DNA of 64,000 bases from Eledone cirrhosa (Eukaryota): contig OZ024744.1 in the NCBI GenBank assembly GCA_964016885.1, forward strand, positions 76,880,001 through 76,944,000, given 5' to 3'. Both the position numbers and the translations under genes were made by a program. The notes beneath the pieces are model-generated. The model ran no database searches and was not told the origin of the DNA. It worked only from the letters and a program-made list of their open reading frames with translations. Positions 17,591 through 49,216 of the stretch are shown piece after piece. Position 1 is the stretch's first letter, and each line of letters opens with the position of its first letter.

Positions 17591-18014
17591 ATATATATAT
17601 ATATATGTACATATGCATGTATGTATGTACGTACGCATGAATGTATGTATGAATGTATGTATACATATATATACATACGCATATATGCATGTACCTATGC
17701 ATGCATGTATGTATGCATCTATGCATGTATCTATCTATCTACATATATATCGAAAAAATGAAACGAAATTTCATTTCCCACTCTTAGTACGGCTGTTACT
17801 TAAATATAAGTATGTACACGTACATACATATATGTATACAGACGTACAGTAGTATGTATATATATATATACATACATGCACAGATATATATATATGTACG
17901 TATGGATTCACCGAACATTTATTATAATGCTTGATGTGTTTGTAAACAAACATCCCGTATTAAGCCGTAGTGTCTAGCAACCATCGTGCTCGTTTGTTCA
18001 ACACTGACAAAGGA

Positions 18015-18057
18015 ACGCTGTACTAGTTTCAAGCTTATTAGCTATCGTCAGCAACGT
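18015..18057 (-). ncRNA. Minimal Type I hammerhead ribozyme, intact core
   Basis: ACGTTG-CTGACGA-T-AGCT aata AGCT-T-GAAA-CTAG-TA-CAGCGT; palindromic stem III and GUA cleavage triplet. Confidence 0.85.
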
Positions 18058-18347
18058 ATACCTTCCTGCCAGATTGTTGAACGTCTGAAAGTATATACTT
18101 TCCTTATGCATATTAACGGCTGAGTAGCCCAATTTGCATATCGAGTGGGTTAATCGGCCGGGTGCACCGAAAACGATAAACGGAAAAAATGAAACGAAAT
18201 TTCATTTCCCATACGTACATATATATATGTGTGCATGTATGTATATATATATACATACTACTGTACGTCTGTATACATATATGAATGTACGTGTACATAC
18301 TTTTTTCAGGGTATGTCAATATTTATTTATAAAACTAATCTGTATTG

Positions 18348-20179: not shown

Positions 20180-20995
20180 TTATCTCTTTCTCTTAATTTC
20201 GAGTATATTTTTTTGACCTGCCACCTTCCTGGTGAAAAGGTTGTAAAAGAAAAAAAATTGTCATCCCTTGAATCGCAAGAATGTTTTGCAAATTTTGAAG
20301 GTGCCAGCTATCACAGCCATTTATAGACTATGAATTAGGGAGCTGCGCTCTTTGTCCGCAAATCCAAGTTCAGTCATACTTTGGTCCAAGCGGGTTGGTA
20401 TATAACCCGTAGCTCCAATAATGATGGGTATGAAGCTAAAGGTGTATCTTGGATACTGGATTTGTAAACTCCTCATCAATGGTCCGTAGATGTCCTCCTT
20501 CTCCTGTATTTTTCTGACAACGTTTACATCAAGTGGGCAGCTGATCTCCACAACAGAACACATTTTCAATGTGTGGTCCCAAGGCCGGTTGTGCTTTAAT
20601 TTGGTGGCAGTTTTTATTTTCAGGTTCCACCAGTATTCCTTAGTGCCATCTGTCTCAATATATTCTTCCTCGTTTGTTGTTAATTTTGTTTTCCGAAGTG
20701 CGTTCCAGATGGTTCTAGCTATCCCATCGTGTCTCATGGGGAGGTAGTAGCGAGATGACATTCTTTCGCAGCTGGCAACAATGTGGCTTACATCCTCGAT
20801 CTTTGTTTTACATAGCCTACATTTATTGTCAGCTGATGGCCCTCCTCTTTTGTGCAGCATATATTTGGTAGGGAGTTCTTGTTCCTGTATTGCATAGAGA
20901 TATCCCTCAAGGTGTGATGTCATAAACTTGTCGGAACTCCATGCCAGGCTTTTTGAGTAGTTTATCCCCTCTATGATCTTTGTTTTACGTCTCAA
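20180..20995 (-). mobile_element. 5'-truncated R4/Dong-like non-LTR retrotransposon (CCHC + RLE)
   Basis: CRLC...HIVASC zinc knuckle and RHD...KHNRP(D)...VVEISCP...K..KEDIY RLE motifs; (CATA)n on both sides. Confidence 0.9.
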
Positions 20996-21015
20996 TGTAT
21001 GTATGTATGTATGTA

Positions 21016-21590
21016 TCCCAGTACAACCTGTCCCATGGTCGGGTCGTTGGCGACTAAACTGGCAACCCCACCAAGGTTTCTTGGTAAGGAGGGTGACTTT
21101 GGACTTCCTGCAGGACTAAAAACAAAACCTGTCAAAGGGCAAAGGAGCTCTTAAGAGTCAGTGGCCATCCAAAATCACCGGGAGAGATGACCCCTTAGCC
21201 TTTATCAAGGCAGAATTCTTGGAGAAGGAAAACTCTGATATAACACCTGCAATTTTGATAGTATCCAATTATGTTGACTTGTTCTTCTTTTTGGTAAATA
21301 TCATCTTGGTTAAGAGAGTGGGACTGGCTTTGTGCAGTGCCTTTGCTCACTATAAAAGCTTCACGGCACAGGCATTGCTTTATATCTGGAGATCTCTCTG
21401 CACTTGTCGTCACATGGTACCATGGGCCCAGCACTATGTGTCAATAATTGTCACAAGTGTAGTGTTTTTACCAGAGTTTTCAAGTCGCTGGCTGGACTAA
21501 ATAATCACACGCGTTTAGCGCATCGGTAGGGGTTCTCCTACATGGATATAAAGTAGTGGCCGTACTCGAAAACGAGTTGGCAGCCACCAT
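21016..21590 (+). mobile_element. RTE-derived bipartite non-autonomous element (~575 bp)
   Basis: RTE-like 5' UTR block (ggagaaggaaaactctg), C2H2-like ORF-end remnant (CSVCTRVFKSLAGLKSH in sister copies) and a (GTAT)n tail. Confidence 0.75.
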
Positions 21591-22845: not shown

Positions 22846-23257
22846 TTGTCGGTATTCTTTTATGTTGTTTTTTTCGTGCAGTGGCCATACTCGATAACGA
22901 GGAGGCAGCCATCGTGTATGTATGATGTATGCTTGTGTGTATGTATGATTTATGTATATATGTATGCATGATTCATGTATACTCTTTTACTCTTTTACCT
23001 GTTTCAGCCATCCGGCTGAGGCCATGCTGGGGCACCGCCCTTGTATATATATGTATATATGTATATGAGTATGTATATATGTATATGTGCATGTATGTGA
23101 ATGTATGATGTATGTGTGTATGATATATGCATATATGAGTGTATACATACATACATATTTTCTGCGTGTATGTATGTATATATGTGTGTGTCTCTGTGTG
23201 TGTGCGCGTGCGTGAGTACGTACGTATATACATATAAACGTGTGTGCTTACGTGTAC

Positions 23258-23320
<63 letters not shown>

Positions 23321-23328
<8 letters not shown>

Positions 23329-23473
23329 TAAGAGGAATTCCAACTTTGTCTGATTTACTCGTTTTATTTACAATCCTTTAAAATATATATAATGGTAACC
23401 ATTATATATATTTTAAAGGATTGTAAATAAAACGAGTAAATCAGACAAAGTTGGAATTCCTCTTATTAATATA
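23321..23473. repeat. Perfect palindrome, 76-bp arms, 1-nt spacer
   Basis: Centre at A23397 (ATGGT-A-ACCAT); adjoins (TA)n. Confidence 0.95.
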
Positions 23474-23521
23474 ATCTTCTATACACAATCATACACACCC
23501 GTGTATATTTACCTATCTATA

Positions 23522-24476: not shown

Positions 24477-24722
24477 CTGTTTTTATGTTAAAAAAGTGGC
24501 TCCAGCGTTACTTTTGTGTTGCAAAAATTCTTGTGGTCAAAACAATTTTGATTGGTCGGTAGAGGTGATGTGAATGTAAAAAATTGATTTTGCGCCAAGA
24601 CTGTTTTTATGTTAAAAAACTGGCTCCAGCGTTATTTGGTGTTTGCAAAAATTCTTGTGGTCAAAACAATTTTGATTGGTCGGTAGAGGTCATGTGAATA
24701 TAAAATTGGTTTTGCGCCAAGA
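24477..24722. repeat. Tandem duplication, ~124-bp unit x2
   Basis: ctgtttttatgttaaaaaa...ttttgcgccaaga occurs twice. Confidence 0.85.
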
Positions 24723-27104: not shown

Positions 27105-27466
27105 GTATATGTATATGTATGTATGTGTGGATGAAGGTATGTGTGTATATATAGGTGTAAGTGCACTAAATCCCTTTCTATCACGCTCCACTCACCTACC
27201 CACCACAGGAAGATATGTGTATGTATATTGCTTCCACCCCCTCACTGACCAGCAGCTGGCCAGTTGGCGATTGCTTAATCTGACCTTTATAAAATAACCC
27301 ACACCCCAAATAACTTCTCATTCACTACCAGAAAGGGACACAGCAGTCAACCTGTTGTTGCTACCTAGATGAAAACTGCTATGAAATCCCACAATGAATT
27401 TTATACTTGAATTTTCAAATCTCAAATTTTAACTCTTCGTATTATTAATTTTTCTTAATATTAATC

Positions 27467-27514
27467 AACATTTGAAAAGATGGCTTTTGCAGACCCATCG
27501 AAACCGGTCATTTT
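27467..27514 (+). ncRNA. Minimal Type I hammerhead with U3:A8 core variant
   Basis: AACAT-TTGAAAA-GATGG cttttgcagac CCATC-GAAA-CCGG-TC-ATTTT. Confidence 0.6.
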
Positions 27515-27652
27515 TTATACCCTTTATTATTTCCTTACCTTATAAAATTATATGTTTTTTCACAAAAAAGTATTCTGTCTCTTATATATTCCATGTGCCA
27601 TTACCAACCTAAATTTTCTCTATAACCTTCGTTTTGTGTAGAAAATTACACT

Positions 27653-27723
<71 letters not shown>

Positions 27724-27935
27724 TAAATTCAGCGAGAATCGCAATTCGGCGGGTAGAAAAAGCGAAACGAAACGCAAAATCAGAGTTATGCTGGCAAGCG
27801 CTCCATAGTTAAAAAACCAGAGCTAAACATATGTGTTAAAACGCCATACAAACTGAAAAAGTGGTCAAGAAGACATTAACCACCTAAGTCAAAAAACAAG
27901 TCAATCTAAACAGGTCAAACAAAATAAATGATACA

Positions 27936-27993
<58 letters not shown>

Positions 27994-28058
27994 ACGTAAA
28001 ATAAGAAAATTTCTTTTAAAAAAATTTTTTTTGAAAAATTAACTTACTTAAATTTTCA

Positions 28059-28138
28059 CTCCAACTAATTAGTTTCTGCAATGGGATAAAGACAGTTACG
28101 TAATGAACTGTTGAGAATTTCATTGCGTCATCAGGGAG
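28059..28138 (-). ncRNA. Type I hammerhead ribozyme (inverted-arm copy)
   Basis: Reverse complement of 28726-28805. Confidence 0.8.
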
Positions 28139-28725
28139 GTCATTTTCAGCCGAGTCTCCAGGCGATGCGCGGACACTGGGGACTCATATAAAAATAATAA
28201 TAATTCGGCAACTGGAACAGCTATCGAGGACTGGATTCCAGCCACTGAAAATTCTCACTGCCACTGATCATATGGCCGATTCTAAAGAATCAATCACGTG
28301 ACACAGAGGCTAGTCAGTATATTATTGTTCTGCATCCTCCTGCATTGAACCACCTAGGTACTATGACATAACCTGTGTATTTGCTGGAATTAGCGTACAT
28401 CTGTGCGCTTATGTTAGTAGATATATTAAATTATCTATATTTATCTCCAAATCACTGATTTGTCGAGCAAACCTGCCAAAACCACTTCTAAAAATTTTTT
28501 TTGGGGGGTGTTAGTAGGCGTCTGTCATCTTACCATCCCATTCCTACTGACTAGCCTCTGTGTCACGTGATTGATTCTTTAGAATCGGCCATATGATCAG
28601 TGGCAGTGAGAATTTTCAGTGGCTGGAATCCAGTCCTAGATAGCTGTTCCAGTTGCCGAATTATTAATATTTTTATATGAGTCCCCAGTGTCCGCGCATC
28701 GCCTGAAGACTCGGCTGAGAATGAC

Positions 28726-28805
28726 CTCCCTGATGACGCAATGAAATTCTCAACAGTTCATTACGTAACTGTCTTTATCCCATTGCAGAAACTAATTAGT
28801 TGGAG
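28726..28805 (+). ncRNA. Type I hammerhead ribozyme with a long stem II insertion
   Basis: CTCC-CTGATGA-c-GCAATG...CATTGC-a-GAAA-CTAATTAG-TT-GGAG; palindromic stem III and GUU triplet. Confidence 0.8.
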
Positions 28806-29002
28806 TGAAAATTTAAGTAAGTAAGTTAATTTTTCTAAAAAAATTTTTTTTTAAGAAATTTTCTTATTTTACGTCTTATATATTATTGTTCTGCATCCTC
28901 CTGCATTGAACCACCTAGGTACTATGACATAACCTGTGTATTTGCTGGCATTAGCGTACATCTGTGCGCTTATGTTAGTAGATATATTAAATTATCTATC
29001 TA

Positions 29003-29078
<76 letters not shown>

Positions 29079-29548
29079 CACATATATATACATATACACA
29101 TATATAACCGACCTGGACCCATTGGAATTGATGGTAAAATCCAAATGCACGGTTTCTATAACACCTAAATCAATAATACTGTCTACTTAAAACTATAAGC
29201 TTTTGGTATGATGATCGAACAAGGAATATCACGTTATCAACAGGTATTTTGCCATACGCCAACTTTGTGAATGACGCAGGGCTTTGTAAAAGCACATGCG
29301 TAACTCACAAGGGGAAAAACACCAGATTTTTGTATGTGTAAATCATGCAATAAATTGCATAAATAGCACAAATCGAATAAGCACTCAACCGGGTAGTTTT
29401 AAAAATAAACTTATGCAATTAATCTGTCAATAGAATTATTAACAGGTTAATTGTAATACTCGGGAGATTAATACAAATATAAATTCAGCGAGAATCGCAT
29501 TTCGGCGGGTAGAAAAAGCGAAACGAAACGCATATATATATATTTACG

Positions 29549-30984: not shown

Positions 30985-32615
30985 CTACAGGTTTATATAC
31001 AGAGAAATATTCACTCGGGCCATTTTCGTCACATTCACCCACCTTTCAGCGAATTTACTGGGGTGTAGCAACTCTCTCACCACTCTCACCTTCCTTCTGA
31101 AGTGATACTTAAAGAAGGGGATAAGTTGTTGTCCGGAGAGAAAGGTGTTTGCCCTCAGTCCTTTTAACCTCGTCCATATTACCTCTTTCGCCATAGCCAC
31201 CAGACATAGGAAAACCGCCTCTCCTTTATTCGTAAATGAAGGCGGCGGGGTGATCGTCCCGATCGACTCGGCTGACAACTGGATGCGTCCCACACGTGAC
31301 AGTAGCTGTTCGACATAATTCCACAGGTCAGTCACCCTTGGGCACTGAACAATTGCGTGCAGGACGGTTTCAATGTCCTGATCGCATCTTGGACAGGTCC
31401 TTTTAGCAGGATCTCTGCCAGGGCATCAGTGCCTGTAGATTTTGTCTCGAACTGGTAGAGCTCCTCGGTAGCATTGCCAGGCCAGAGAACTCTGGAAATT
31501 ATCCATAGGCCCTGGACGGAAAGTCCTCCCGAACAGACTGGTCAGTTCCTCTTCCTCGATGCCTAGAGTTTCCCCGAGACCGTCGTCGCACTTATCTTCT
31601 ACTAATCCCCTATATAATGTCTAAGTTGAGTCTCCGCTTATTGCCGTTTCCGCTTGGTGCTAGGCACCCATTTTCGGTCTTCGCTTGACCCAGGACTGCA
31701 GCTCTGTTAGTGAGACGAGTTGTGGAAGAGCTTGTCTCACAAACGACAGCCACACCGGTTCACCGGTCAGAAATACCTGGAGATGGCGTAGCCTCAGCGC
31801 GTGTTTGCGCATCATCAGCCACGGCATGCCCATCCCTCCGTTAGAAGAGTGTTGACAGCAGATGGATCTCCTCACCAATGGAGCCTGTTTCTTCCAGAGG
31901 AACTTGAAGAGTAGGAGTTCCATTTTGGTAAGGTATTCGCGGGGGAAAAGCATGACTGTCAAGCGGTAGTAGATGACGGACGCTATGTAAGTGTTCGCCA
32001 CCTCCGCTCGACCTTTCAAGGAGAGTTTGCACTCAGCTGCACTCAGCTGCACTCAGCCCACTTCTGGGTGACTGCAAAAACCTTCGCCTTGACCTCGTTC
32101 CAGTTCTTGTCCACCTGGAGGTCTAGACCAAACCAGACCCTGAGGAATTTCACCGGTCCTTCCGTCCAGCGTCCAACAACACTGTCGGAATGCATGGGTT
32201 TGCCTCTCCATGTGCCGAGTTGCAAACCGACAGACTTGTTTGGGTTTAGTCTTGCTCCTGTCAACGTTACGTATTCCTGTAATAGGTTGCCGATTACCCC
32301 GATTTCTGAGATTTTCGACACTATTACGGTTATGTCGTCGGCATAAGCCGACGCTGCTTTCCGCAGTTCTGGTTCGATCGGGATGCCCTGCAACAGCTCC
32401 AACTTCCGCAGTAACGGCTCAAGAGTCAGTACATACAGAATGGAGGAGAGAGGGCATCCCTGGCGGATGGAACGCATGATTTTGAATGGCTCTGATAGGT
32501 AGCCATTCACCTTAATTGCCGAGCAGATGCTGGTGTGCATGGCAGCGATTCAGCCTCTAAAGACGAGACCGAAGCCGGCCGCCTTGAGAACTGCATCCAA
32601 GTATTGATGGTCGAC
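30985..32615 (-). pseudogene. Second, diverged copy of the ORF2 3' half (RT to C-terminus), frameshifted
   Basis: SIRQGCPLS, AYADDITV, LSLKGRAEVANTYIAS, GGMGMP, QLSAESI, SKFAERW. Confidence 0.85.
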
Positions 32616-35600
32616 CATTTTCGCTTCATTCACCCACCTTTCAGTAAATTTACTGGGGTGCAGTGCCTCTCTCTCCACTCTAATTCTCCTTCTAAAGTGA
32701 TACTTAAAGAAGGGAATCAATTGTTGTCCGGAGAGAAAGGCATCTGTCCTCAGTCCTCTCAAACTCGTTCACCATAGCCACCTTACAGAGGAAAACCCCC
32801 TCTCTTTCGTTTTTGAAAGAGGCTGGCGGTTTGATCCTTACTATGGACTCGGCAGACAACTGGATTTGTCCCATACGCGACAGCAGTTGTTCTGCATAGT
32901 TCCACAGGTCGGTTACGCCCGGGCAGTGTACAATTGCGTGTAGGACTGTTTCAATGTACTGCGCGCGTCTTGGACACGTCCTCTTGGAAGGATCCCTGCC
33001 GGAACGTCCGTGGCTGTAGATCTTGTCACGAACCGGTAAAGCTCCTCGGTAGCACTGCCAGGCCAGGGACCTCTGGAAGTTGTCCATAGGTCCCGGGCGG
33101 AAAGTCCTACCAAACAGACTGGTGAGCTCATCGTCGTCGACGCCTAGAGTCTCTCCGAGCACGCGTCGCCCTTGTAACGTACAATCCTTCTATAGAATGT
33201 CGAAGTGGAGTCTCCACTGATTGCTGTGCCCGCTTGCCAGAGGACTGTGAACGCCTGAGCCCTGAGCGCATTCAATGTGCCAGGCGCCCATCGTTTTCGG
33301 TCTTTTCTTGACCCAGGACTGCAGCTCCGTCAGCGAGACGAGCTGTGGGAGAGCCTCTCTCACAAACGGTGCTCACACCGGTTGGGGTTGGTGAGGAATA
33401 CCTGGAGATGCCGCAGCCTCAGCGCATGTTTGCGCATCATCAGCCACGGCATTCCCAGCCCTCCGTTGGAAGGGTGCTGACAGCAGACGGATCTCCTCAC
33501 CAGCAGAGCCTGCTTCTTCCACAGAAACTGGAAGAGCATGCGTTCCATCTTGGCGAGGTGTTCACGGGGACAAGGCATGACACTCAAGCGGTAGTAGATA
33601 ACGGACGCTATGAAAGTGTCGCCACCTCCGCTCGACCTTTCAAGGACAGTTTGCACTCTGCCCACTTCTGGGTGAGTGCAAACACCTTGGTCGTGACCTC
33701 GTTCCATTTTTTCTCCACCTGGAGGTCTGGACCGTACCAGACACCGAGCAATTTCACCGGTCCGTACGTCCAGCGTCCAACGACGCTGTCGGACGTCATC
33801 GGTTTGCCTCTCCACGTATCGAGTTGCAAACCGACAGACTTGTCTGGGTTTAGTTTTGTTCCCGTCAGCGTTTCGTATTCTTTCAGTAAGTTGCCGATCA
33901 CCCCGATTTCCGAGGTGCTCGACACCATTACCGTCATGTAGTCGGCAGAAGCCGACGCCTGTTTGCGCAGTCCCGGTTCTAGAGGGATGCCCTGCAACAG
34001 CTCCAATTTCCTCAGTAGTGGCTCTAGAGTCAATACATACAGAATGGAGGAGAGAGGGTATCCCTGTCGAATGGAACGCGTGATTGCGAACGGCTCCGAT
34101 AGTTAGCCGTTCACCTTGACCCTCGAGCAAGTGAAGGTGTGCATCGCCTCGATCCAGCCTCTGAAAACGGGACCGCAGCCGGCCTCCTTGAGAACCGCTT
34201 CCAAGTATCGATGGTCGATGCTATCGAATGCCTTAGACTGATCCAAATTGATCAGAGCCCCACCGGGTTTACTAATCCAAATTGATCAGAGCCCACCGGG
34301 TTTACTACCCACCCTCTCTATGATGTATCGCATGAGGTGGAGGTTGTCGTGCATGGACCTGGACGGGATTACACACGTTTGCGCTTTCCCTACCAGGTTC
34401 TCGACGCCAAGCGCCAACCTCGTCGCTAGTACCTTGGCCAAAATCTTTAACTCTGTGTTGAGCAGAGTTATGGGCCTGAAGTTGTTAATTTCGTCCCCCT
34501 TGTTCTCGTCTTTCCTGATCAGCGTTACTACGCCCTTGCCTGCAGAACTGGGAATTCTCCCGTTCTGCCGCCAATTGCAGTAGACGGCTTCGAGGACGCC
34601 AGAGAACAAGTCCGCCATGCCTATGTAAAACTCATAGGGTAGACCATCTAGACCGGGTGACTTGCGTTTCCCGCAGCGGCCCAGAGCGTCCCGTATCTCA
34701 GTGTCCGTGATCGGTCTTTCGCAGAACTCGGCGTCCGTGTTCGAGAGACGTGGCAGGCCGTCTAGGTATGAACTAAAGTCCATTGCCCCGTTCGGCTCAC
34801 CGTCGTTCTGCTCAAACAGTCGCTGAACAGTGCTGCTGAAAGGCCGCGCACATTTGCTTGGGGTCAAGTAGCACGCGTCCGTTTTGGTCTTTCAAAGACC
34901 GAATCGTGGACTTGTTGCCACTTTTTGCCTCCGCCACTCGGGCCCAGCTGAGAGCTTTCGTTCCTTCGTTTCCTAGAGCACGTGTTTTGCTTCTGACCCC
35001 GCAGCCTTCGTGTTTTGCATCGAAGAACTGGTCCAGTGCCGTTCTCGACGCTAACACTCTAGCCGCGTTGCCACTTCTAAGTGCCTCCTCTACCTTAGCT
35101 ACTAGTTTTCTTTCTATTTTGTTTTTCTCTAAGACTAACTCTCTGCTAAACCCTATCGATTCTATTCTAATTGCTTTCTTGAGAGAGTACCACCATTTAT
35201 TGTTGACGATGGCTCCCGTTAACTGTTGCTTGACTAGTCTACTTATCCGGTCACTGTAAGCTTTACGTGCCGGCAACGACACGTTCAGCTTCCAGTATCC
35301 GGGTCCTTGTTTATGTATTCTATCACGGTTGACTAAGCAGACGACTAATTTGTGATCTGAATAGGCAACCATGTGCATTCGTGGACAGCTTAACATCTTG
35401 TCCCTTTCTCTAATGAAGAACCTATCTAAATACGATCTAGATGTCCCGCTGCGGTTTGCCCACGTCCACTGTGGTGCAGTCGGGAAATCCAGTCGATACC
35501 TATCGGCCTGTTGGAATTGGCCGATTAAAGTTTTGAGGCTAGTGCGCGCCCCCTCCCCCCCCCCCCCTCTACTGAGACATGCTCCCACATAGTCCCATCG

Positions 35601-36050
35601 TGCATCTAGGATACCATTCCAGTCCCCCACTAAAAGTAAGGAGCGAGACGTTGCCAGAAAAGTCTCTAGACGCTTAAAGAAGTCTGGCCGTGATTGCGAT
35701 TGCCTGGTCGGGGCATAAACGGCCACCAGTCTGAAGACTCCACCTCCAATACTGTTCACGTCTAGGAATACCAGTCTACTCTGCGGGTCCAAGTGTACTT
35801 GCTGTACTTCGACGTCCAGGTTCTTCCGAAACATGACAGCCACTCCCCCTCCCCCTCCTGGCTGACTGAGAGATGCGTAGATCTCAAAGTCGTCGAAGAT
35901 GGGGGTTAGTTGCTGCCTGTTGTGGATCCTGGACTCGGTGATGGCTATCACATCCAAACCGTGTGACCTAAGGTCGTTTAAAAGTTGGCCCTGTTTCCAG
36001 GGCATCCCTAGGCCACGCATTTTCACGCTTCCAACTCGTAAACAAGCCAT
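32615..36050 (-). pseudogene. L1/Tx1 ORF2 (APE endonuclease, reverse transcriptase, C-terminal Zn motif), several frameshifts
   Basis: APE: VIAITES, LLVGDWNG, YLDRFF, SDHKLV. RT: SPGLDGLPYEFY, FRPITLLNTELKILAKVLATRL, SADYMTV (catalytic motif decayed). C-terminus: CPR...ETVLHAIVHC. Confidence 0.9.
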
Positions 36051-36439
36051 GTTGGTGAAGAAAATTTGGAGAAAAAGGACGAAAGGTGCACTTACCTTTT
36101 CGTTTCCTGGAGATCGGGTTGTTCAATCTCCATTTGGGTGCTGGATGGGGTGTCGCGTGAGGTGGGGAAACATTTTAACAGGATGCGTTTGATGGGTTTC
36201 TGGCAGGGGTTGCCCGTCCTGTGAAAATTTATTTTTCAGGTCATTATAGATTTCCATAGAAATCCTTAAAAGTTTAAGGTGTGGAGACGATTCTGCCTTG
36301 ACGAAAGTTTTGCCCTCCGTCTCCACCTTGGGGTTTTGGAAGATGACCTCCATCAAACTCTTGTTGTTTGTGTTGATGTATGCGTATTGTTGTTTGTGAT
36401 TTTGTTGCGTTGTTTTAGTTTGTTGTTCGTCCGGGAGTT

Positions 36440-37641
36440 TTATGGTGGGTGCTTGTGTTTGGGGTGGTGTTGGTTTTGCTGGTAGGGGGTGTTTGACTGT
36501 GGTGTTGTTTGTGTTGTTGTTTGTGTCTGTGGTTGTGTGTTGGTGTTGGTGATGGTGATTGGCGTTTTGGGGTTTTTTATGGTGTCTCTTTTTTGTTTTT
36601 TAGATTTCCGCGGTTCTCCCTCTTCTTCACTTAAAGAAGGAGAAGCAGCTTCATCCGTCGATGAATAATCATCGTCAGGAGTGTGGGGTAGGGGTATGTT
36701 TGCGGTGGTGGTGTTTCGGTGTGTGTGTTTGTGGTAGTGTATGATGGAGTGGGATGGGGTGGGGCTGTGTTCTTCAGGGGTGCTGTCTCTGTTTTTTTCA
36801 GTTGTTGTTGGTTGAGTGGCTGTTTGTTTTGGTATGGTTGCTCGTTTCGTCAGTCGTTGTACTTGTGGTGGTGGTGGTTGTTTTGGTGTTGGTGTTGGGA
36901 ATAGTGTTTTTTTAATGGTGTTGTTGTGGTGTGTTTGTGAAGGACAAGAGGCTTTTAGGTGTGCTGTGCTACCACAGCGAAAGCAATGAAATGTTCGTCC
37001 TTCTACCGAAATGTTTATTTTATTGTTATCATCGATGACGACTCTTTCGGGTATTTTGGAGATTCTCTCCGGCCTCATTTGCAACAGAATCTCCAAATCA
37101 GTACCCGTCCACTTTTGTCGAATAGACTTTCGTATCGAAAGTATCATATCAGTTTCTGGCTCTACGAAGCCAGCCAAGATCCACCAGGTGTTAATATTTG
37201 GTGGTATATTTTTTATTTTTATTTTTTGTGTCCTTTTTCCCATGTATGTAGGGAAAAAGGTGAATACTTTTGACACTATTGGTGTCACAGAATGTTTTGG
37301 GGAGAGTGCCTCGCTTTTAAATAGTACGGAAACACTTCCGTACTCTTTTCCTCGTTGGAGAAATTCGATATTTGCTAGAATTTCCTTCAATGTATCTTCT
37401 ATATCTCCTTGACTAACAAATATCGGCTTTTTCGTGGTATTGGATAGAGTCCTAAAGGTCACTGTCCTTCGAACTGTGTCTTCTTTTATTTCAAGGTGTG
37501 AGTTAATTCTAAACCCACCCTGCTCTTCGAAAGTTACAAATTTTCTCCCTTGCTGGAGCATATCTCTTGCATTGGAGATGTCAAGATTTGTAAAATCTTG
37601 TTTTTTGTTCACTGTTTCAGCGAAAGACATTTTTTGTGTGG

Positions 37642-37675
<34 letters not shown>

Positions 37676-37789
37676 ATCGTTGTTAGCCTCGGTGTTGGAA
37701 ATCTCAGTTCCTTGACGAGGTGAAACTTTATGTGTAGATGTATCTGTGGAGTTGTTGATGTTTTTTTCATGTGTATGTATGTTATTCAT
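36440..37789 (-). CDS. L1/Tx1 ORF1 protein with a CCHC zinc knuckle (may continue by frameshift toward 36123)
   Basis: 449-aa ORF containing CFRCGSTAHLKASC followed by a Pro/Thr/Lys low-complexity tail; lies upstream of ORF2. Confidence 0.8.
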
Positions 37790-37994
37790 GTTTTATAGTT
37801 GGCAAAATTTGATATTTCAAAATAATTTTTAAATTAAATTTTCGCCCCTAAAGGGGCGAAAAATGGCATTACCACCCAGCTGACAATTTAGCTTGGGGGT
37901 TAATCTGCAAAATAATATGTTTTTTCAAACAATTTGTTCTGTTTTTCGTATATAAATTTACAAAAAATCTTACCGGCGATGACGCGTCAGTCAT

Positions 37995-44507: not shown

Positions 44508-45650
44508 TAAGATTATGAGAGTTGGAAGGGAACTCCTTGAAAGATACTCCCTGCATGATAATAAAAGCTCACACCCAGCAATACCGCAGCGATTCCATGG
44601 ATGAAAAACTGCATGCTTAGCAAAAATCCTGCATAGATATGTTGCCAGGAGGCTTCAGAGTAAAAGTAATATAGATAAGCAAAGTAGTCTATCTTGGACC
44701 AACAACCGCTATATTGGCTCCCACTTTGAAGGATACGCTTTTGCAATCCAAGAACGGGAAATCAACACGAAATACCTGATTCACAAAGAGATAGGGATGG
44801 AGGCAAAACACCTAGATGTGATAACGAGTGCAGACTCTTTAGAATTAACAGCGAAGATGTCACCCCTGTCATAAGCAGCTGTCCAAAGATGTCATTCGCG
44901 GTACTATCTACCTATGAGATATGATGTAGTGGCCAAAACACTGTACAATGCAATCCATAGAAAAGATAGCCCTGATAATAAACACATTAAAAGCTACAAC
45001 AATGTGGAAGACATCCATGTACATAATATGAAAGAGTACTGGTGGAATGTTCCAGTAAAAACCCCAATAAAATGCAGGCATAACAGACCAGATATTATGA
45101 TATGGGACAGGGAGAAGAAAACATGCACAGTAGTGGAAATTAGCTGCCCAGCAGATGCCAATATAATGTTAAAGATTAGCGAAAAGGAGAATATCTATGC
45201 AGAACTAATGAGAAATTTGCAGATACTCCACCCTGATTACACCTTCAGATTTATGCCTGTGATTATTGGGGCACTGGGATATGTTAGTAACTGCCTCAGT
45301 ACAAATCTTGAGAAGCTGGGCTTCACAGGAACAGAAAAAACACGACTAGTTACAATCCATTAATGGAACAGTAAAAATATGTAAAACATTCCAAAAATTG
45401 TGCATCTAATAACTACATATACGCATGTACATATACAAAGCATATACACATGCACACATACAACTCAAAACATACACATCCTCACATACAATAACATCCA
45501 TACCTGCACACACATGAAAGCAGACATGCATACATATCTACCTAGTTGGTGTTGTGTAAATTCCAATGAGAGAGTCTTGTATCTAAATTAGAAACCGACT
45601 CTCTCTCTCTATTGGTAAAAATTTGTGAAATTATAAAACCAGAAGAAAAT
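44508..45650 (+). mobile_element. 5'-truncated R4/Dong-like retrotransposon, subfamily 2
   Basis: EYWWNVPVKTPIKCRHNRPDIMIWDREKKTCTVVEISCP...EKENIY; (CATA)n on both sides. Confidence 0.85.
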
Positions 45651-45751
45651 ACATACATGAATACATACATACATACATACATACATACATACATACATAC
45701 ATACATACATACATACATACATACATACATACATACATACATACATACATA

Positions 45752-46232
45752 CATGGTGGCTCGTTTTCGAGTACGGCCACTACTTTATATCCATGTAGAG
45801 AACCCCGACTGATGCGCTGAACGAGTGTGACTTTTTAGTCCAGCCAGCGACTTGAAAACTCTGGTACAAACACTACACTTGTGACAATTATTGATACATA
45901 GTGCTGGGCCCATAGTACCATGTGACGACAAGTGCAGAGAGATCTCCAGATATAAAGCAATGCCTGTGCCGTGAAGCTATTATAGTGAGCAAAGGTACTG
46001 CACAAAGCCAGTCCCACTCTCTTAACCAAGATGATATTTACCAAAAAGAAGAACAAGTCAACATCATTGGATACCATCAGAGTTGCAGGTGTTATATCAG
46101 AGTTTTCCTTCTCCTAGAATTCTGCCTTGACAAAGGCTAAGGGGTCATCTCTCCCGGTGATTTTGGATGAACATTGACTCTTAAGAGCTCCTTTGAGGAG
46201 GGTGACTTTGGACATCCTGCAGGACTAAAAAC
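45752..46232 (-). mobile_element. RTE-derived bipartite element with a short 5' inversion
   Basis: 45752-46194 is on the minus strand; 46195-46232 is a plus-strand piece of the same element. Confidence 0.75.
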
Positions 46233-46294
46233 AATACATACATACATACATACATACATACATACATACATACATACATACATACATACATACA

Positions 46295-47110
46295 ATACAG
46301 ACCATAGAGGGGATAAACCACTCAAAAAGCCTGGCATGGAGTTCCGACAAGTTTATGACATCACACCTTGAGGGATATCTCTATACAATACAGGAACAGA
46401 ACTCCCTACCAAATATCTGTTGCACAAAAGAGGAGGGCCAGCAGCCAACAATAAATGTAGGCTATGTAAAACAAAGATCGAGGATGTAAGCCACATTGTT
46501 GCCAGCTGCAAAAGAATGTCATCTCGCTACTACCTCCCCATGAGACACGATGGGATAGCTAGAACCATCTGGAACGCACTTCGGAAAACAAAATTAACAA
46601 CAAACGAGGAAGAATATATTGAGACAGATGGCACTAAGGAATACTGGTGGAACCTGAAAATAAAAATTGCCACCAAATTAAAGCACAACGGGCTTGATAT
46701 TGTTGTTTGGGACCACACATTGAAAACGTGTTCTGTTGTGGAGATCAGCTGCCCACTTGATGTAATCGTTGTCAGAAAAATACAGGAGAAGGAGGACATC
46801 TACGGACCATTGATGAGGAGTTTACAAATCCAGTATCCAAGATACACCTTTAGCTTCATACCCATTATTATTGGAGCTACGGGTTATATACCAACCCGCT
46901 TGGACCAAAGTATGACTGAACTTGGATTTGCGGACAAAAAGCGCAGCTCCCTAATTCATATTCTACAAATGGCTGCGATAGCTGGCACCTTCAAAATATG
47001 CAAAACATTCTTGCGATTCAAGGGATGACAATTTCTTTTCTTTTACAACCTTGCCACCAGGAAGGTGGCCGGTCAAAAAAAATATACTCGAAATTAAGAG
47101 AAAGAGATAA
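46295..47110 (+). mobile_element. 5'-truncated R4/Dong-like retrotransposon
   Basis: 202-aa CCHC+RLE ORF 46420-47028; (CATA)n on both sides. Confidence 0.9.
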
Positions 47111-47194
47111 CATACATACATACATACATACATACATACATACATACATACATACATACATACATACATACATACATACATACATACATACATA

Positions 47195-49216
47195 GAACGT
47201 CTGACCAAGAACTGGTACACCAATTTGATCCATAGAGGTGAGAAGGAGCAAATTAAGACTGATACAATACACTACCAGAAAGGCATCTTTCAGGGTGATA
47301 GCTTATCAGTTTTGCTCTTCGTCCTCTCACTAAACTCACTATCATACCTGTTCACAAAACAAAGTGGTCATGGAAGTGGGTCCAGAAGTATCTCCCATCT
47401 TTTCTTTATTGATGATCTGAAGTTGTATGGGCCAAATATCAACTATATTAAAAAACAATTGGACCTCATTACACAATTTTCTGCAGACATCAGAATGAAA
47501 TTTGGTGAGTCCAAATGTGAATATTTGACAGTAAAACGTGGAAGGGCTGTGTCCTCCTCTGGAAATCTAGAGATGAACGGCCTGACAATACAACCTCTAC
47601 AGTCAGGTGACAACTACAGATATCTTGGACAAGATGAGAATGTCAGGTATGATGGACTCATATATAAGGAGAGAACCAGGACTGAATACCTCAGGAGAGT
47701 AAAGAAAATATGGTCATCAAAACTATTAGCGTACAACAAATACATTGCCCACAATACTTATGCTGTGCCAATCCTAACACCAACATTTGGCCTGCTGAAC
47801 TGGTCATTGCAAGAACTAAGTGAGATGGATGTTAGAACTCGCAAGCTTCTCAGTGTTACTGGAAAGTTTAACATCAATGGTGATGGGGATAGGCTATAAT
47901 TATCATACAAAGAAGGTGGCCGGGGTCTAGAATCTATATTAACATCATACGAGACCCGAATAATAACACTGAAGCAACATCTTAGGCAGAAGAAAAAGGT
48001 CAACAACTATTTTGCCTAGGTCTATGAACATGAAGGAAATAATTGTTTCCACTTTTGGCATAAGGCCAGCAATTACCCAGGGCAATTACTGGTACTTTAT
48101 TTTATCGACCCCCTAAGGATGAAAGGCAAAGTTAACCTCGGCGGGATTTGAACTCAGAATGGCAAAGGCCGTAACTCTATGCGCCAAAGCATAGCGCCCG
48201 ACCCTCTACCGATACAGCCAATCCACTCACCATCACGAAGGATATAATATCATTAGGATAGCCACTGATCTGGAGGAGAGATACGGAATAAGGCCTGCTA
48301 TAGATCTCTCCCAGAGAAATTGGAAGATCCTATTCAATGTTCGAACAGGATAAAAGAATAGACCAATTTACAGAGAGTTGTGCATGGGTATCTGAGACGA
48401 AAAGCACAGACCATAGAGGGGATAAATCATCCAAAGAGCCTGGCATGGAGTTCCGACAAGTTTACAACATCCCACCTTGAAGGATATCTCTATGCAATAC
48501 ACGAACAAGAAATCCCTACCAAATATCTGCTACACAAAAGAGAAGGGCCGTAAGTAGACAATAAATGTAGGCTTTGTAAAACAAAGATCGAAGATGTTAG
48601 CCACATTGTTGCCAACTGCAAAAGACTGTTGTCTCACTACAACCTCCCCATGAGACACGATGTGATAGCTAGAACCATCTGGAGCGCACTTAGGAAAACA
48701 ACATTAAAAACAAATGAGGAGGAATATGTTGAGACAGATGGCACTAAAGAATACTGGTGGAATCTGAAAGTAAAAACTACCACGAGATTAAAGCACAACA
48801 GGCCTGATATTGTTGTTTGGGACCACACATTGAAAACGTGTTCTGTTGTGGAGATCAGCTGCCCACTTGATGTCAACGTTGTAAGAAAAATACGAGAGAA
48901 GGAGGACATCTACGGGCCATTGATGAGGTGTTTGCAAATCCAGTATCCAAGATACACCTTTAGCTTCATACCCATTATTATTGGAGCTACGGGTTATATA
49001 CCAACCCACTTGGACCAAAGTATGACTGAACTTGGATTTGCGGACAAAAAGCGCAGCTCCCTAATCCATAGACTACAAATGGCTGCGATAGCTGGCACCT
49101 TCAAAATTTTCAAAATATTCTTGCGATTCAAGGGATGACAATTTCTATTCTTTTACAACCTTTTCACCAGGAAGGTGGTCGGTCAAAAATATACTCGAAA
49201 TTAAGAGAAAGAGAAA
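47195..49216 (+). mobile_element. R4/Dong-like retrotransposon (RT to RLE) with a SINE inserted at 48040-48232
   Basis: RT motifs GIFQGDSLSVLLF, SHLFFIDDLKLY, KFGESKC, YRYLG; RLE ORF 48629-49138. Confidence 0.92.

What the first reader, a model, noticed from the sequence alone, without database searches (positions are those of the whole stretch)
27991..29000. Best-preserved exemplar: inverted arm plus a 1.2-mer terminally redundant HHR monomer
Seen: (TA)n, a 330-bp inverted arm, a 561-bp monomer with an intact-core HHR (28726-28805), a 120-bp repeat of the monomer start, then (TA)n. The arms are nearly identical, so the insertion is young. No ORF. Inference: more-than-unit-length copying is expected from reverse transcription of a circular or tandem RNA, as in retrozymes and PLE partial tandems. 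Stem II carries an unusually long (~37 nt) loop.
Basis: partly seen in the sequence, partly recalled or inferred. Interest (0 to 1): 0.75.

Follow-up and report, generated by a model that had tools for sequence, protein, structure and literature searches.

The report
Two-armed Penelope-mobilised hammerhead retrozyme
This is one of thousands of copies of a non-coding repeat with a predicted self-cutting RNA motif, and its back-to-back insertions end at two fixed points like those of Penelope-type jumping genes, whose enzyme likely copied it from both sides of a DNA break, probably by running round a small RNA circle.

Summary
In detail: an inverted arm, a 561-bp unit with a type I hammerhead (HHR), a 121-bp repeat, and (TA)n on both sides. 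It is one of roughly 2,500 or more insertions (4,343 exact HHR-core matches, control 0). HHR helices covary across subfamilies. Copies are not randomly permuted. Their 5' ends vary, but 3' ends fall at two fixed sites, unit end (S) or ~122 nt further (T). The 121-bp 'redundancy' is therefore a long Penelope-like-element (PLE) tail. In 79 of 89 two-armed insertions one arm ends at S and the other at T; none was confirmed S/S or T/T; 10 were unresolved or short-tailed. Autonomous Hydra- and Neptune-type PLEs here show the same pattern. Both arms come from one template sequence, and arms reach 6.4 units. In one insertion two unit variants alternate perfectly in both arms, as expected from a dimeric RNA circle. 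Verdict: an animal non-LTR retrozyme mobilised by PLEs; circular template about 70% likely. Cleavage, circle and partner family are not shown. The scan found this architecture, probably this family too, on other DNA before.

The parts
27939..27991 (.). Left (TA)n target microsatellite; no target-site duplication can be read
   Evidence: 47 of 56 position-sampled insertions have a TA run on both sides, the other 9 on one side
27990..28319 (-). Inverted arm; outer end at the S site (unit end, no tail), 5'-truncated at unit position ~226
28059..28134 (-). Second HHR copy in the inverted arm; predicted cut 3' of 28063 on the minus strand
28318..28319 (.). Head-to-head junction of the two arms with a 2-nt (TA) overlap
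28318..28878 (+). One full 561-bp unit of the direct arm; folds better than shuffles (z -5.1)
28562..28569 (.). GTCACGTG motif kept in subfamilies about 70% identical; E-box-like (label recalled), inferred promoter element, untested
28726..28805 (+). Type I HHR: helix I 28726-29/28802-05; core 28730-36; C-A mismatch; helix II 28738-43/28781-86 with inner hairpin 28753-58/28767-72; GAAA 28788-91; palindromic helix III 28792-99; predicted cut after U28801
28874..28885 (+). S site: UA-rich unit junction, one of the two fixed 3' ends of the family
28879..28999 (+). PLE-type tail (~122 nt): an invariant 8-bp hairpin plus a long hairpin with compensatory changes; ends at the UA-rich T site, the second fixed 3' end
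29000..29072 (.). Right (TA)n target microsatellite

Best explanation
This is one insertion of an abundant non-coding, hammerhead-bearing tandem element (an animal non-LTR retrozyme) that is likely mobilised in trans by Penelope-like RT/GIY-YIG proteins, which probably copied a self-cut, circularised RNA from both strands of a break in a (TA)n tract. Steps: (1) a multi-unit copy is transcribed on the HHR strand (inferred). (2) HHRs cut and the 561-nt monomer, or sometimes a dimer, is ligated to a circle (inferred; fold conserved, cleavage not shown). (3) A PLE protein, probably a dimer, binds the structured tail and nicks both strands of (TA)n (inferred from Frangieh et al. and the genomic pattern). 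(4) One RT starts at the T site and one at the S site, both UA-rich in the template (two fixed ends and their strict pairing shown; priming inferred). (5) Each RT runs a variable distance, up to 6.4 units, reading through HHR sites (shown). (6) The two cDNA ends are joined head-to-head, often over 1-3 nt of overlap (weakly shown). If only one side succeeds, a single-armed copy results.
For: Copy number and (TA)n targeting. HHR covariation. Two fixed 3' ends with variable 5' ends. S+T in 79 of 89 two-armed insertions with no confirmed same-type pair. The same S+T pattern in ORF-bearing PLEs of this genome: 7 of 10 opposed-ORF loci of a young Hydra-type family (1 complex, 2 unresolved), 2 loci of another Hydra-type family and 1 Neptune-type locus. 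One template per insertion: arms differ by 1.4%, and only 12 of 157 differences are family polymorphisms, against 5,960 of 14,247 between separate insertions at most 3% apart. In 23 long arrays, units differ by 0.1-0.3% within against 0.79% between insertions, and alleles private in the sample are fixed in all units of both arms (for example 8 of 8 covering units in L199). Period-2 alternation in 2 of the 12 insertions with long arms tested; in L200 three linked sites alternate over six units of one arm and also in the opposite arm. In print: tail at one end only (PMC8557442 Fig. 2 legend, PMC3846280), two internal RT starts flanking the tail with a predicted dimer extending both strands (PMC11167929), and a circular template proposed (PMC4209133, PMC7229834).
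Against: Self-cleavage is doubtful on several counts. The helix II base is C-A, helix I is only 4 bp in this subfamily, the active fold is 2.8 kcal/mol above the predicted minimum, the HHR region folds no better than shuffles, and Rfam has no hit. In the 2026 preprint 8 of 9 predicted retrozyme dimers did not cleave in vitro. In PAc uncleaved RNA was the dominant substrate and initiation was not homology-based. No A>G excess among insertion-fixed alleles (6 A>G, 6 T>C of 40). No sharp pile-up of 5' ends at the cut site (2 of 19 by eye). L046 is a chimera of two subfamilies. L199 shares one unit-specific variant at the same register in both arms, which fits a multimeric template. Four tail-side ends in the 523-nt subfamily stop inside the tail. 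No autonomous element homologous to the unit was found in 132 PLE-bearing or neighbouring loci (one search tested one further Hydra unit).
Confidence: 0.7

Rival explanations
1. Same PLE-driven double priming, but the template is an uncut linear multimeric transcript of a tandem source locus. The HHR is slow, protein-dependent or irrelevant, and no circle is needed.
For: PAc uses unprocessed RNA in vitro. Deviant HHR features. L199 same-register variant. No editing scar. Loci of 5-6 units exist and could be sources.
Against: Each long insertion has its own alleles fixed across all units and both arms, which needs a monomer bottleneck. Cross-arm divergence is not lower at the same register (0.29%) than at other registers (0.25%). 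No longer master array among the 39 candidates scored (not exhaustive). HHR helices are under compensatory selection.
Confidence: 0.2
2. The template is the HHR-cut linear monomer, and RT makes tandems by jumping from its 5' end back to a 3' end, sometimes of another molecule.
For: Explains unit homogeneity without ligation. Mild excess of 5' ends just around the cut site (12 of 19 in positions 480-490 against 7 in 460-479, counted by eye).
Against: The HHR-core word spanning the cut site is exact in 4,343 places, so jumps would have to be seamless. Perfect A/B alternation in both arms of L200 is hard to get from random jumps. The L046 switch is not at the cut site.
Confidence: 0.07
3. A solo or ordinary pLTR of an autonomous PLE, or a foldback DNA element or local satellite shaped by recombination after insertion.
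For: The ends look like ordinary PLE ends. A PLE ORF lies near some copies. Unequal crossover can make period-2 arrays in one arm.
Against: Units join head-to-tail with no ORF. Nearby ORFs are separate insertions, or in L062 joined mid-unit at the copy's truncated 5' end. Arm lengths are unequal and junctions variable, unlike fixed terminal inverted repeats. The alternation is present in both inverted arms of L200.
Confidence: 0.03

Closest known systems
Metazoan non-LTR retrozymes (Cervera and de la Pena 2020, PMC7229834, passages and Discussion read; Li, Clavereau and Pollet, bioRxiv 10.64898/2026.07.22.740005, parts 1-3 of 5 read, supplements closed)
   Same: Non-coding, AT-rich tandem units with one type I HHR each; dimers to multimers; co-occurrence with PLEs; a circle as RT template proposed; unit length within the 51-972 bp range of the preprint.
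   Different: Oversized interrupted helix II with a C-A base. Dispersed insertions that are mostly two-armed with fixed S/T ends in (TA)n, a structure not described in the passages read. No sequence homology to an autonomous pLTR was found here, whereas the preprint found it for 24 of 57 Xenopus families. Expression and circles were shown there, not here.
EN+ Penelope-like elements, Hydra and Neptune clades (Craig et al. 2021, PMC8557442, passages and Hydra section read; Arkhipova et al. 2013, PMC3846280, passages read)
   Same: 5' truncation, partial tandems, adjacent inverted 5'-truncated copy, tail at only one end, (TA)n targeting, HHR with palindromic helix III.
   Different: No ORF. The tail is ~122 nt rather than 30-40 bp (local autonomous families have tails of about 40-135 nt). 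Up to 6.4 units per arm.
Poseidon PAc in vitro mechanism (Frangieh et al. 2024, PMC11167929, parts 1-2 of 4 read)
   Same: Two internal RT start sites bracketing the tail; both strands cut and extended; AT-rich target; predicted dimer.
   Different: PAc starts in an AC-rich stem-loop without homology to the target, and showed no strand difference in start site. Here both sites are UA-rich like the target, and the two arms strictly use different sites.
Non-autonomous Chlamys elements such as MRC1 (PMC8557442, passage read)
   Same: Non-autonomous PLE passengers forming pLTRs and multicopy head-to-tail insertions.
   Different: [quoted passage not shown]

Membership tests
Animal non-LTR retrozyme | Non-coding tandem unit | tested here: met
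   No ORF; head-to-tail arrays up to 6.4 units
Animal non-LTR retrozyme | One type I HHR per unit with conserved fold | tested here: met
   Motif and covariation; deviations: C-A at the helix II base, no Rfam hit
Animal non-LTR retrozyme | At least two consecutive HHR units (operational 'active' copy in the 2026 preprint) | tested here: met
   Met by the family; not met by this copy, whose two HHRs are on opposite strands
Animal non-LTR retrozyme | Self-cleavage and circular RNA in cells | not testable with these tools
   Needs a bench assay or raw RNA reads
Animal non-LTR retrozyme | Derivation from a PLE pLTR by sequence homology | tested here: inconclusive
   No homology in 132 PLE-bearing or neighbouring loci or one further Hydra unit; tens of thousands of PLE candidates unscored
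EN+ PLE insertion | 5' truncation, partial tandem, inverted 5' copy | tested here: met
   36 of 58 position-sampled insertions are two-armed
EN+ PLE insertion | Tail at one end only | tested here: met
   79 of 89 two-armed insertions S+T, none confirmed same-type
EN+ PLE insertion | (TA)n target preference (Hydra, Neptune, Naiad) | tested here: met
Autonomous EN+ PLE | RT plus GIY-YIG ORF | tested here: not met
LTR retrozyme or LTR element | Fixed LTR ends at both sides, type III HHR, short TSD | tested here: not met
   5' ends variable, HHR is type I; PBS/PPT not searched for specifically

The most novel reading that the evidence does not exclude
A dimeric Penelope-type enzyme loads on one small circular RNA, starts its two RTs at the two edges of the same structured tail, and rolls round the circle from both strands of a (TA)n break. 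Heterodimer alternation in both arms of one insertion is a genomic record of rolling-circle retrotransposition, and the strict S/T rule is the general explanation of the PLE tail and inverted pLTR.
Probability: 0.55. Interest if true: 0.75.

Novelty: new variant of a known kind. Interest (0 to 1): 0.55.

Why it matters
The element class and its link to PLEs are in print. How PLEs make their tail, inverted arm and tandems, and whether retrozyme circles really serve as RT templates, are stated as open in the papers read (PMC8557442, PMC11167929, PMC7229834). This family gives countable genomic footprints: strict S/T pairing, one template per insertion, and A/B alternation in both arms. It also gives a ready test system, a 561-nt RNA plus intact, very young PLE ORFs in the same genome. 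The unusual HHR (oversized helix II, C-A base) is a cheap biochemical test of what the fold tolerates.

Tried and rejected
No RNA holder listed; laying contigs of runs of unknown kind gave nothing on expression or ends. Rfam at gathering and E-value thresholds: no HHR. Pile-up of 5' ends at the HHR cut site: not sharp. Classical twin priming, where the arms abut on the template: rejected as the rule because arm ends overlap or are unrelated; 4 of the 45 tail arms in the first two sets end within about 15 nt around the S site, which is weak. A fixed one-unit register offset between arms: suggested by two single substitutions but contradicted by L199, L200 and L209. Junction microhomology: only 17 of 39 anchored junctions resolved cleanly (4 more could not be anchored), 14 with at least 1 nt (null 46%) and 8 with at least 2 nt (null 18%); weak. 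Partner search: five Neptune-type, one Penelope/Poseidon-like and several Hydra-type families inspected, none homologous. The Hydra-specific assignment in earlier notes could not be confirmed, since Neptune-type elements also show S/T ends. Uninformative calls: 54 (structure mis-indexed) and 76 (pattern out of register). Literature searches found no paper describing this family or the strict S/T rule; subscription papers and preprint supplements were not visible.

Full report
Observation. The stretch is as described: (TA)n, an inverted arm of about 330 bp, a 561-bp unit (28318-28878), a 121-bp repeat of the unit start, and (TA)n. It has no ORF. A type I HHR lies at 28726-28805 with a predicted cut after U28801, and a second copy lies in the inverted arm. 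The 37-nt loop is an extended helix II with an inner 6-bp hairpin. Helix III is a palindrome, which by PMC4209133 (passages) favours dimeric cleavage. The base of helix II is C-A in 387 of 388 copies counted. Rfam gives no HHR hit, and the isolated HHR does not fold better than shuffles. Across 18 hand-picked variants, however, helices I-III are 98.8% paired with compensatory changes at 4 of 14 pairs, and 0 of 500 shuffles or slid controls come near.

Family. The genome is 3.0 Gb. A 25-nt HHR word has 4,343 exact matches (control 0). The first 100 matches fall in 58 insertions, which extrapolates to about 2,500 insertions; this is a lower bound, since a 523-nt subfamily at about 70% identity has its own 2,563 candidates. 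A contig from a second coded organism carries the same unit junction. 47 of 56 position-sampled insertions have TA runs on both sides.

Ends. 5' ends vary widely. 3' ends fall at unit position ~561 (S) or ~122-127 of the next unit (T), both UA-rich in the template. I examined four sets. Position-sampled: 36 two-armed of 58, 34 S+T automatically, 1 more by eye, 1 cut by another element. Best hits: 26 kept of 30 (3 duplicates and 1 complex duplication left out), 12 two-armed, 10 S+T; one automatic S/S call (L013) is a broken 40-nt piece beyond a TA run, and one is truncated. 523-nt subfamily: 29 kept of 30, 22 two-armed, 17 S+T, 4 with the tail-side end inside the tail (including one automatic S/S call, L167), 1 unresolved. 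Longest arrays: 20, of which 19 two-armed, 17 S+T after fetching the cut ends, 2 running beyond the fetched DNA (including one automatic T/T call, L205). Total: 79 of 89 S+T and none confirmed same-type. Single-armed copies use S and T about equally (11 and 9 in the position sample), so about half would be same-type if the arms chose independently. The 121-bp repeat is thus the PLE tail. It folds into an invariant short hairpin and a long hairpin with compensatory changes at 3 of 28 predicted pairs.

PLE link. The genome holds many PLEs (10,596 GIY-YIG candidates; RT and GIY-YIG domains). I label them Neptune-type or Hydra-type by linker motifs compared with PMC8557442; no tree was built. They carry HHR-like motifs with palindromic helix III, often with a U3-A8 core (read by eye), and they end in (TA)n at two sites. 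A very young Hydra-type family (784-aa ORF, tandems of five 3.5-kb units) shows S+T in 7 of 10 opposed-ORF loci, with 1 complex and 2 unresolved. Another Hydra-type family has an oversized helix II and a ~135-nt tail, the closest architecture to this element. None is homologous to the unit, so the partner family is open.

Template. The two arms of an insertion differ by 1.4% (51 segment pairs), nearly all at private sites: 12 of 157 differences are shared polymorphisms, against 42% between close separate insertions. In 23 long arrays, units differ by 0.1-0.3% within and 0.79% between insertions; same-register cross-arm pairs are no closer than other pairs. Alleles private within the sample are fixed in all covering units of both arms in several insertions. 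This needs a monomer-length template read repeatedly. Arms reach 6.4 units, and no longer master array appeared among 39 scored candidates. In L200 three linked sites alternate A-B-A-B-A-B along one arm and also alternate in the inverted arm, in the same register. L209 also alternates. That is 2 of the 12 insertions with long arms tested. A dimeric circle explains this directly. Duplication after insertion does not explain both arms, though a linear (AB)n source would.

Against. No A>G excess (6 against 6 T>C). No sharp 5' pile-up at the cut site. L046 is chimeric, with the switch away from the cut site. L199 has one unit-specific variant at the same register in both arms. Published cleavage of predicted retrozymes often failed, and PAc used uncut RNA. 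Junction microhomology is only weakly supported.

Mechanism and status. Shown: non-coding tandem unit, conserved HHR fold, two fixed ends used one per arm, a single template sequence per insertion, and read-through of HHR sites. Inferred: transcription, cleavage, circularisation, a dimeric PLE enzyme, and priming from both target strands. I put mobilisation by a PLE at about 0.9 and a circular template at about 0.7.

Comparison and novelty. It works like, and meets the sequence-testable criteria of, animal non-LTR retrozymes (PMC7229834; bioRxiv 10.64898/2026.07.22.740005). Its insertion anatomy is that of EN+ PLEs (PMC8557442, PMC3846280), and the two ends match the two RT starts of PAc (PMC11167929). 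The one-sided tail and the circle hypothesis are in print. The strict S/T count, the long tail and the two-arm alternation were not found in searches; supplements of the preprint were closed and those of the other papers were not opened. Earlier notes of this scan report the same architecture for other families, and probably this one. They are unchecked AI notes and are not counted as support. Verdict: new variant of a known kind, interest 0.55.

Noticed in passing
window 27126-27657 (+): 3' end of a Neptune-type PLE (same family as L147) with an HHR-like motif with a U3-A8 core; an internal UA-rich site ~75 nt after the predicted cut resembles this element's S site.
   Followed up: partly
window 27715-27776 and 29471-29532: A 62-bp direct repeat (97%) brackets the finding, 1,756 bp apart; probably another repeat into which it inserted.
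   Followed up: no
window ~17720-18300 (-), HHR at 18051-18017: A different HHR-bearing repeat (U-U at the helix II base), also seen as tandem and inverted copies in L260 and L270.
   Followed up: partly
L130 6520-7420: A 459-nt HHR tandem family whose tail starts with a hairpin of the same shape as this element's but with different paired letters.
   Followed up: partly
L290-L295 (G000 C1:437.19-437.22 Mb and C1:91.47-91.49 Mb): A very young Hydra-type PLE in tandems of five 3.5-kb units, with an identical EN region in over 100 listed copies; autonomous elements also make long more-than-unit arms.
   Followed up: partly
L129-L148, L179-L198, L259-L274: Several autonomous PLE families carry HHR-like motifs with a U3-A8 core instead of C3-G8, which a standard CUGANGA search misses.
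   Followed up: partly
L062 ~3183: A copy's truncated 5' end joins directly to the 3' end of a Neptune-type PLE in the same orientation with no (TA)n between; nested insertion with a small deletion, or a template switch.
   Followed up: no
L046 1302-2182 (-): Chimeric arm: the 3' part is one subfamily and the 5' part another, switching mid-unit.
   Followed up: partly
window 24477-24722; 22973-23500: Pieces resembling the pLTR repeat and 3' end of two other Neptune-type families (compared by eye).
   Followed up: no
window 31660-37792 (-); 20321-21115, 44875-49138: Broken non-LTR retrotransposon ORFs (endonuclease/RT-like and REL-like C-termini, labels recalled).
   Followed up: no
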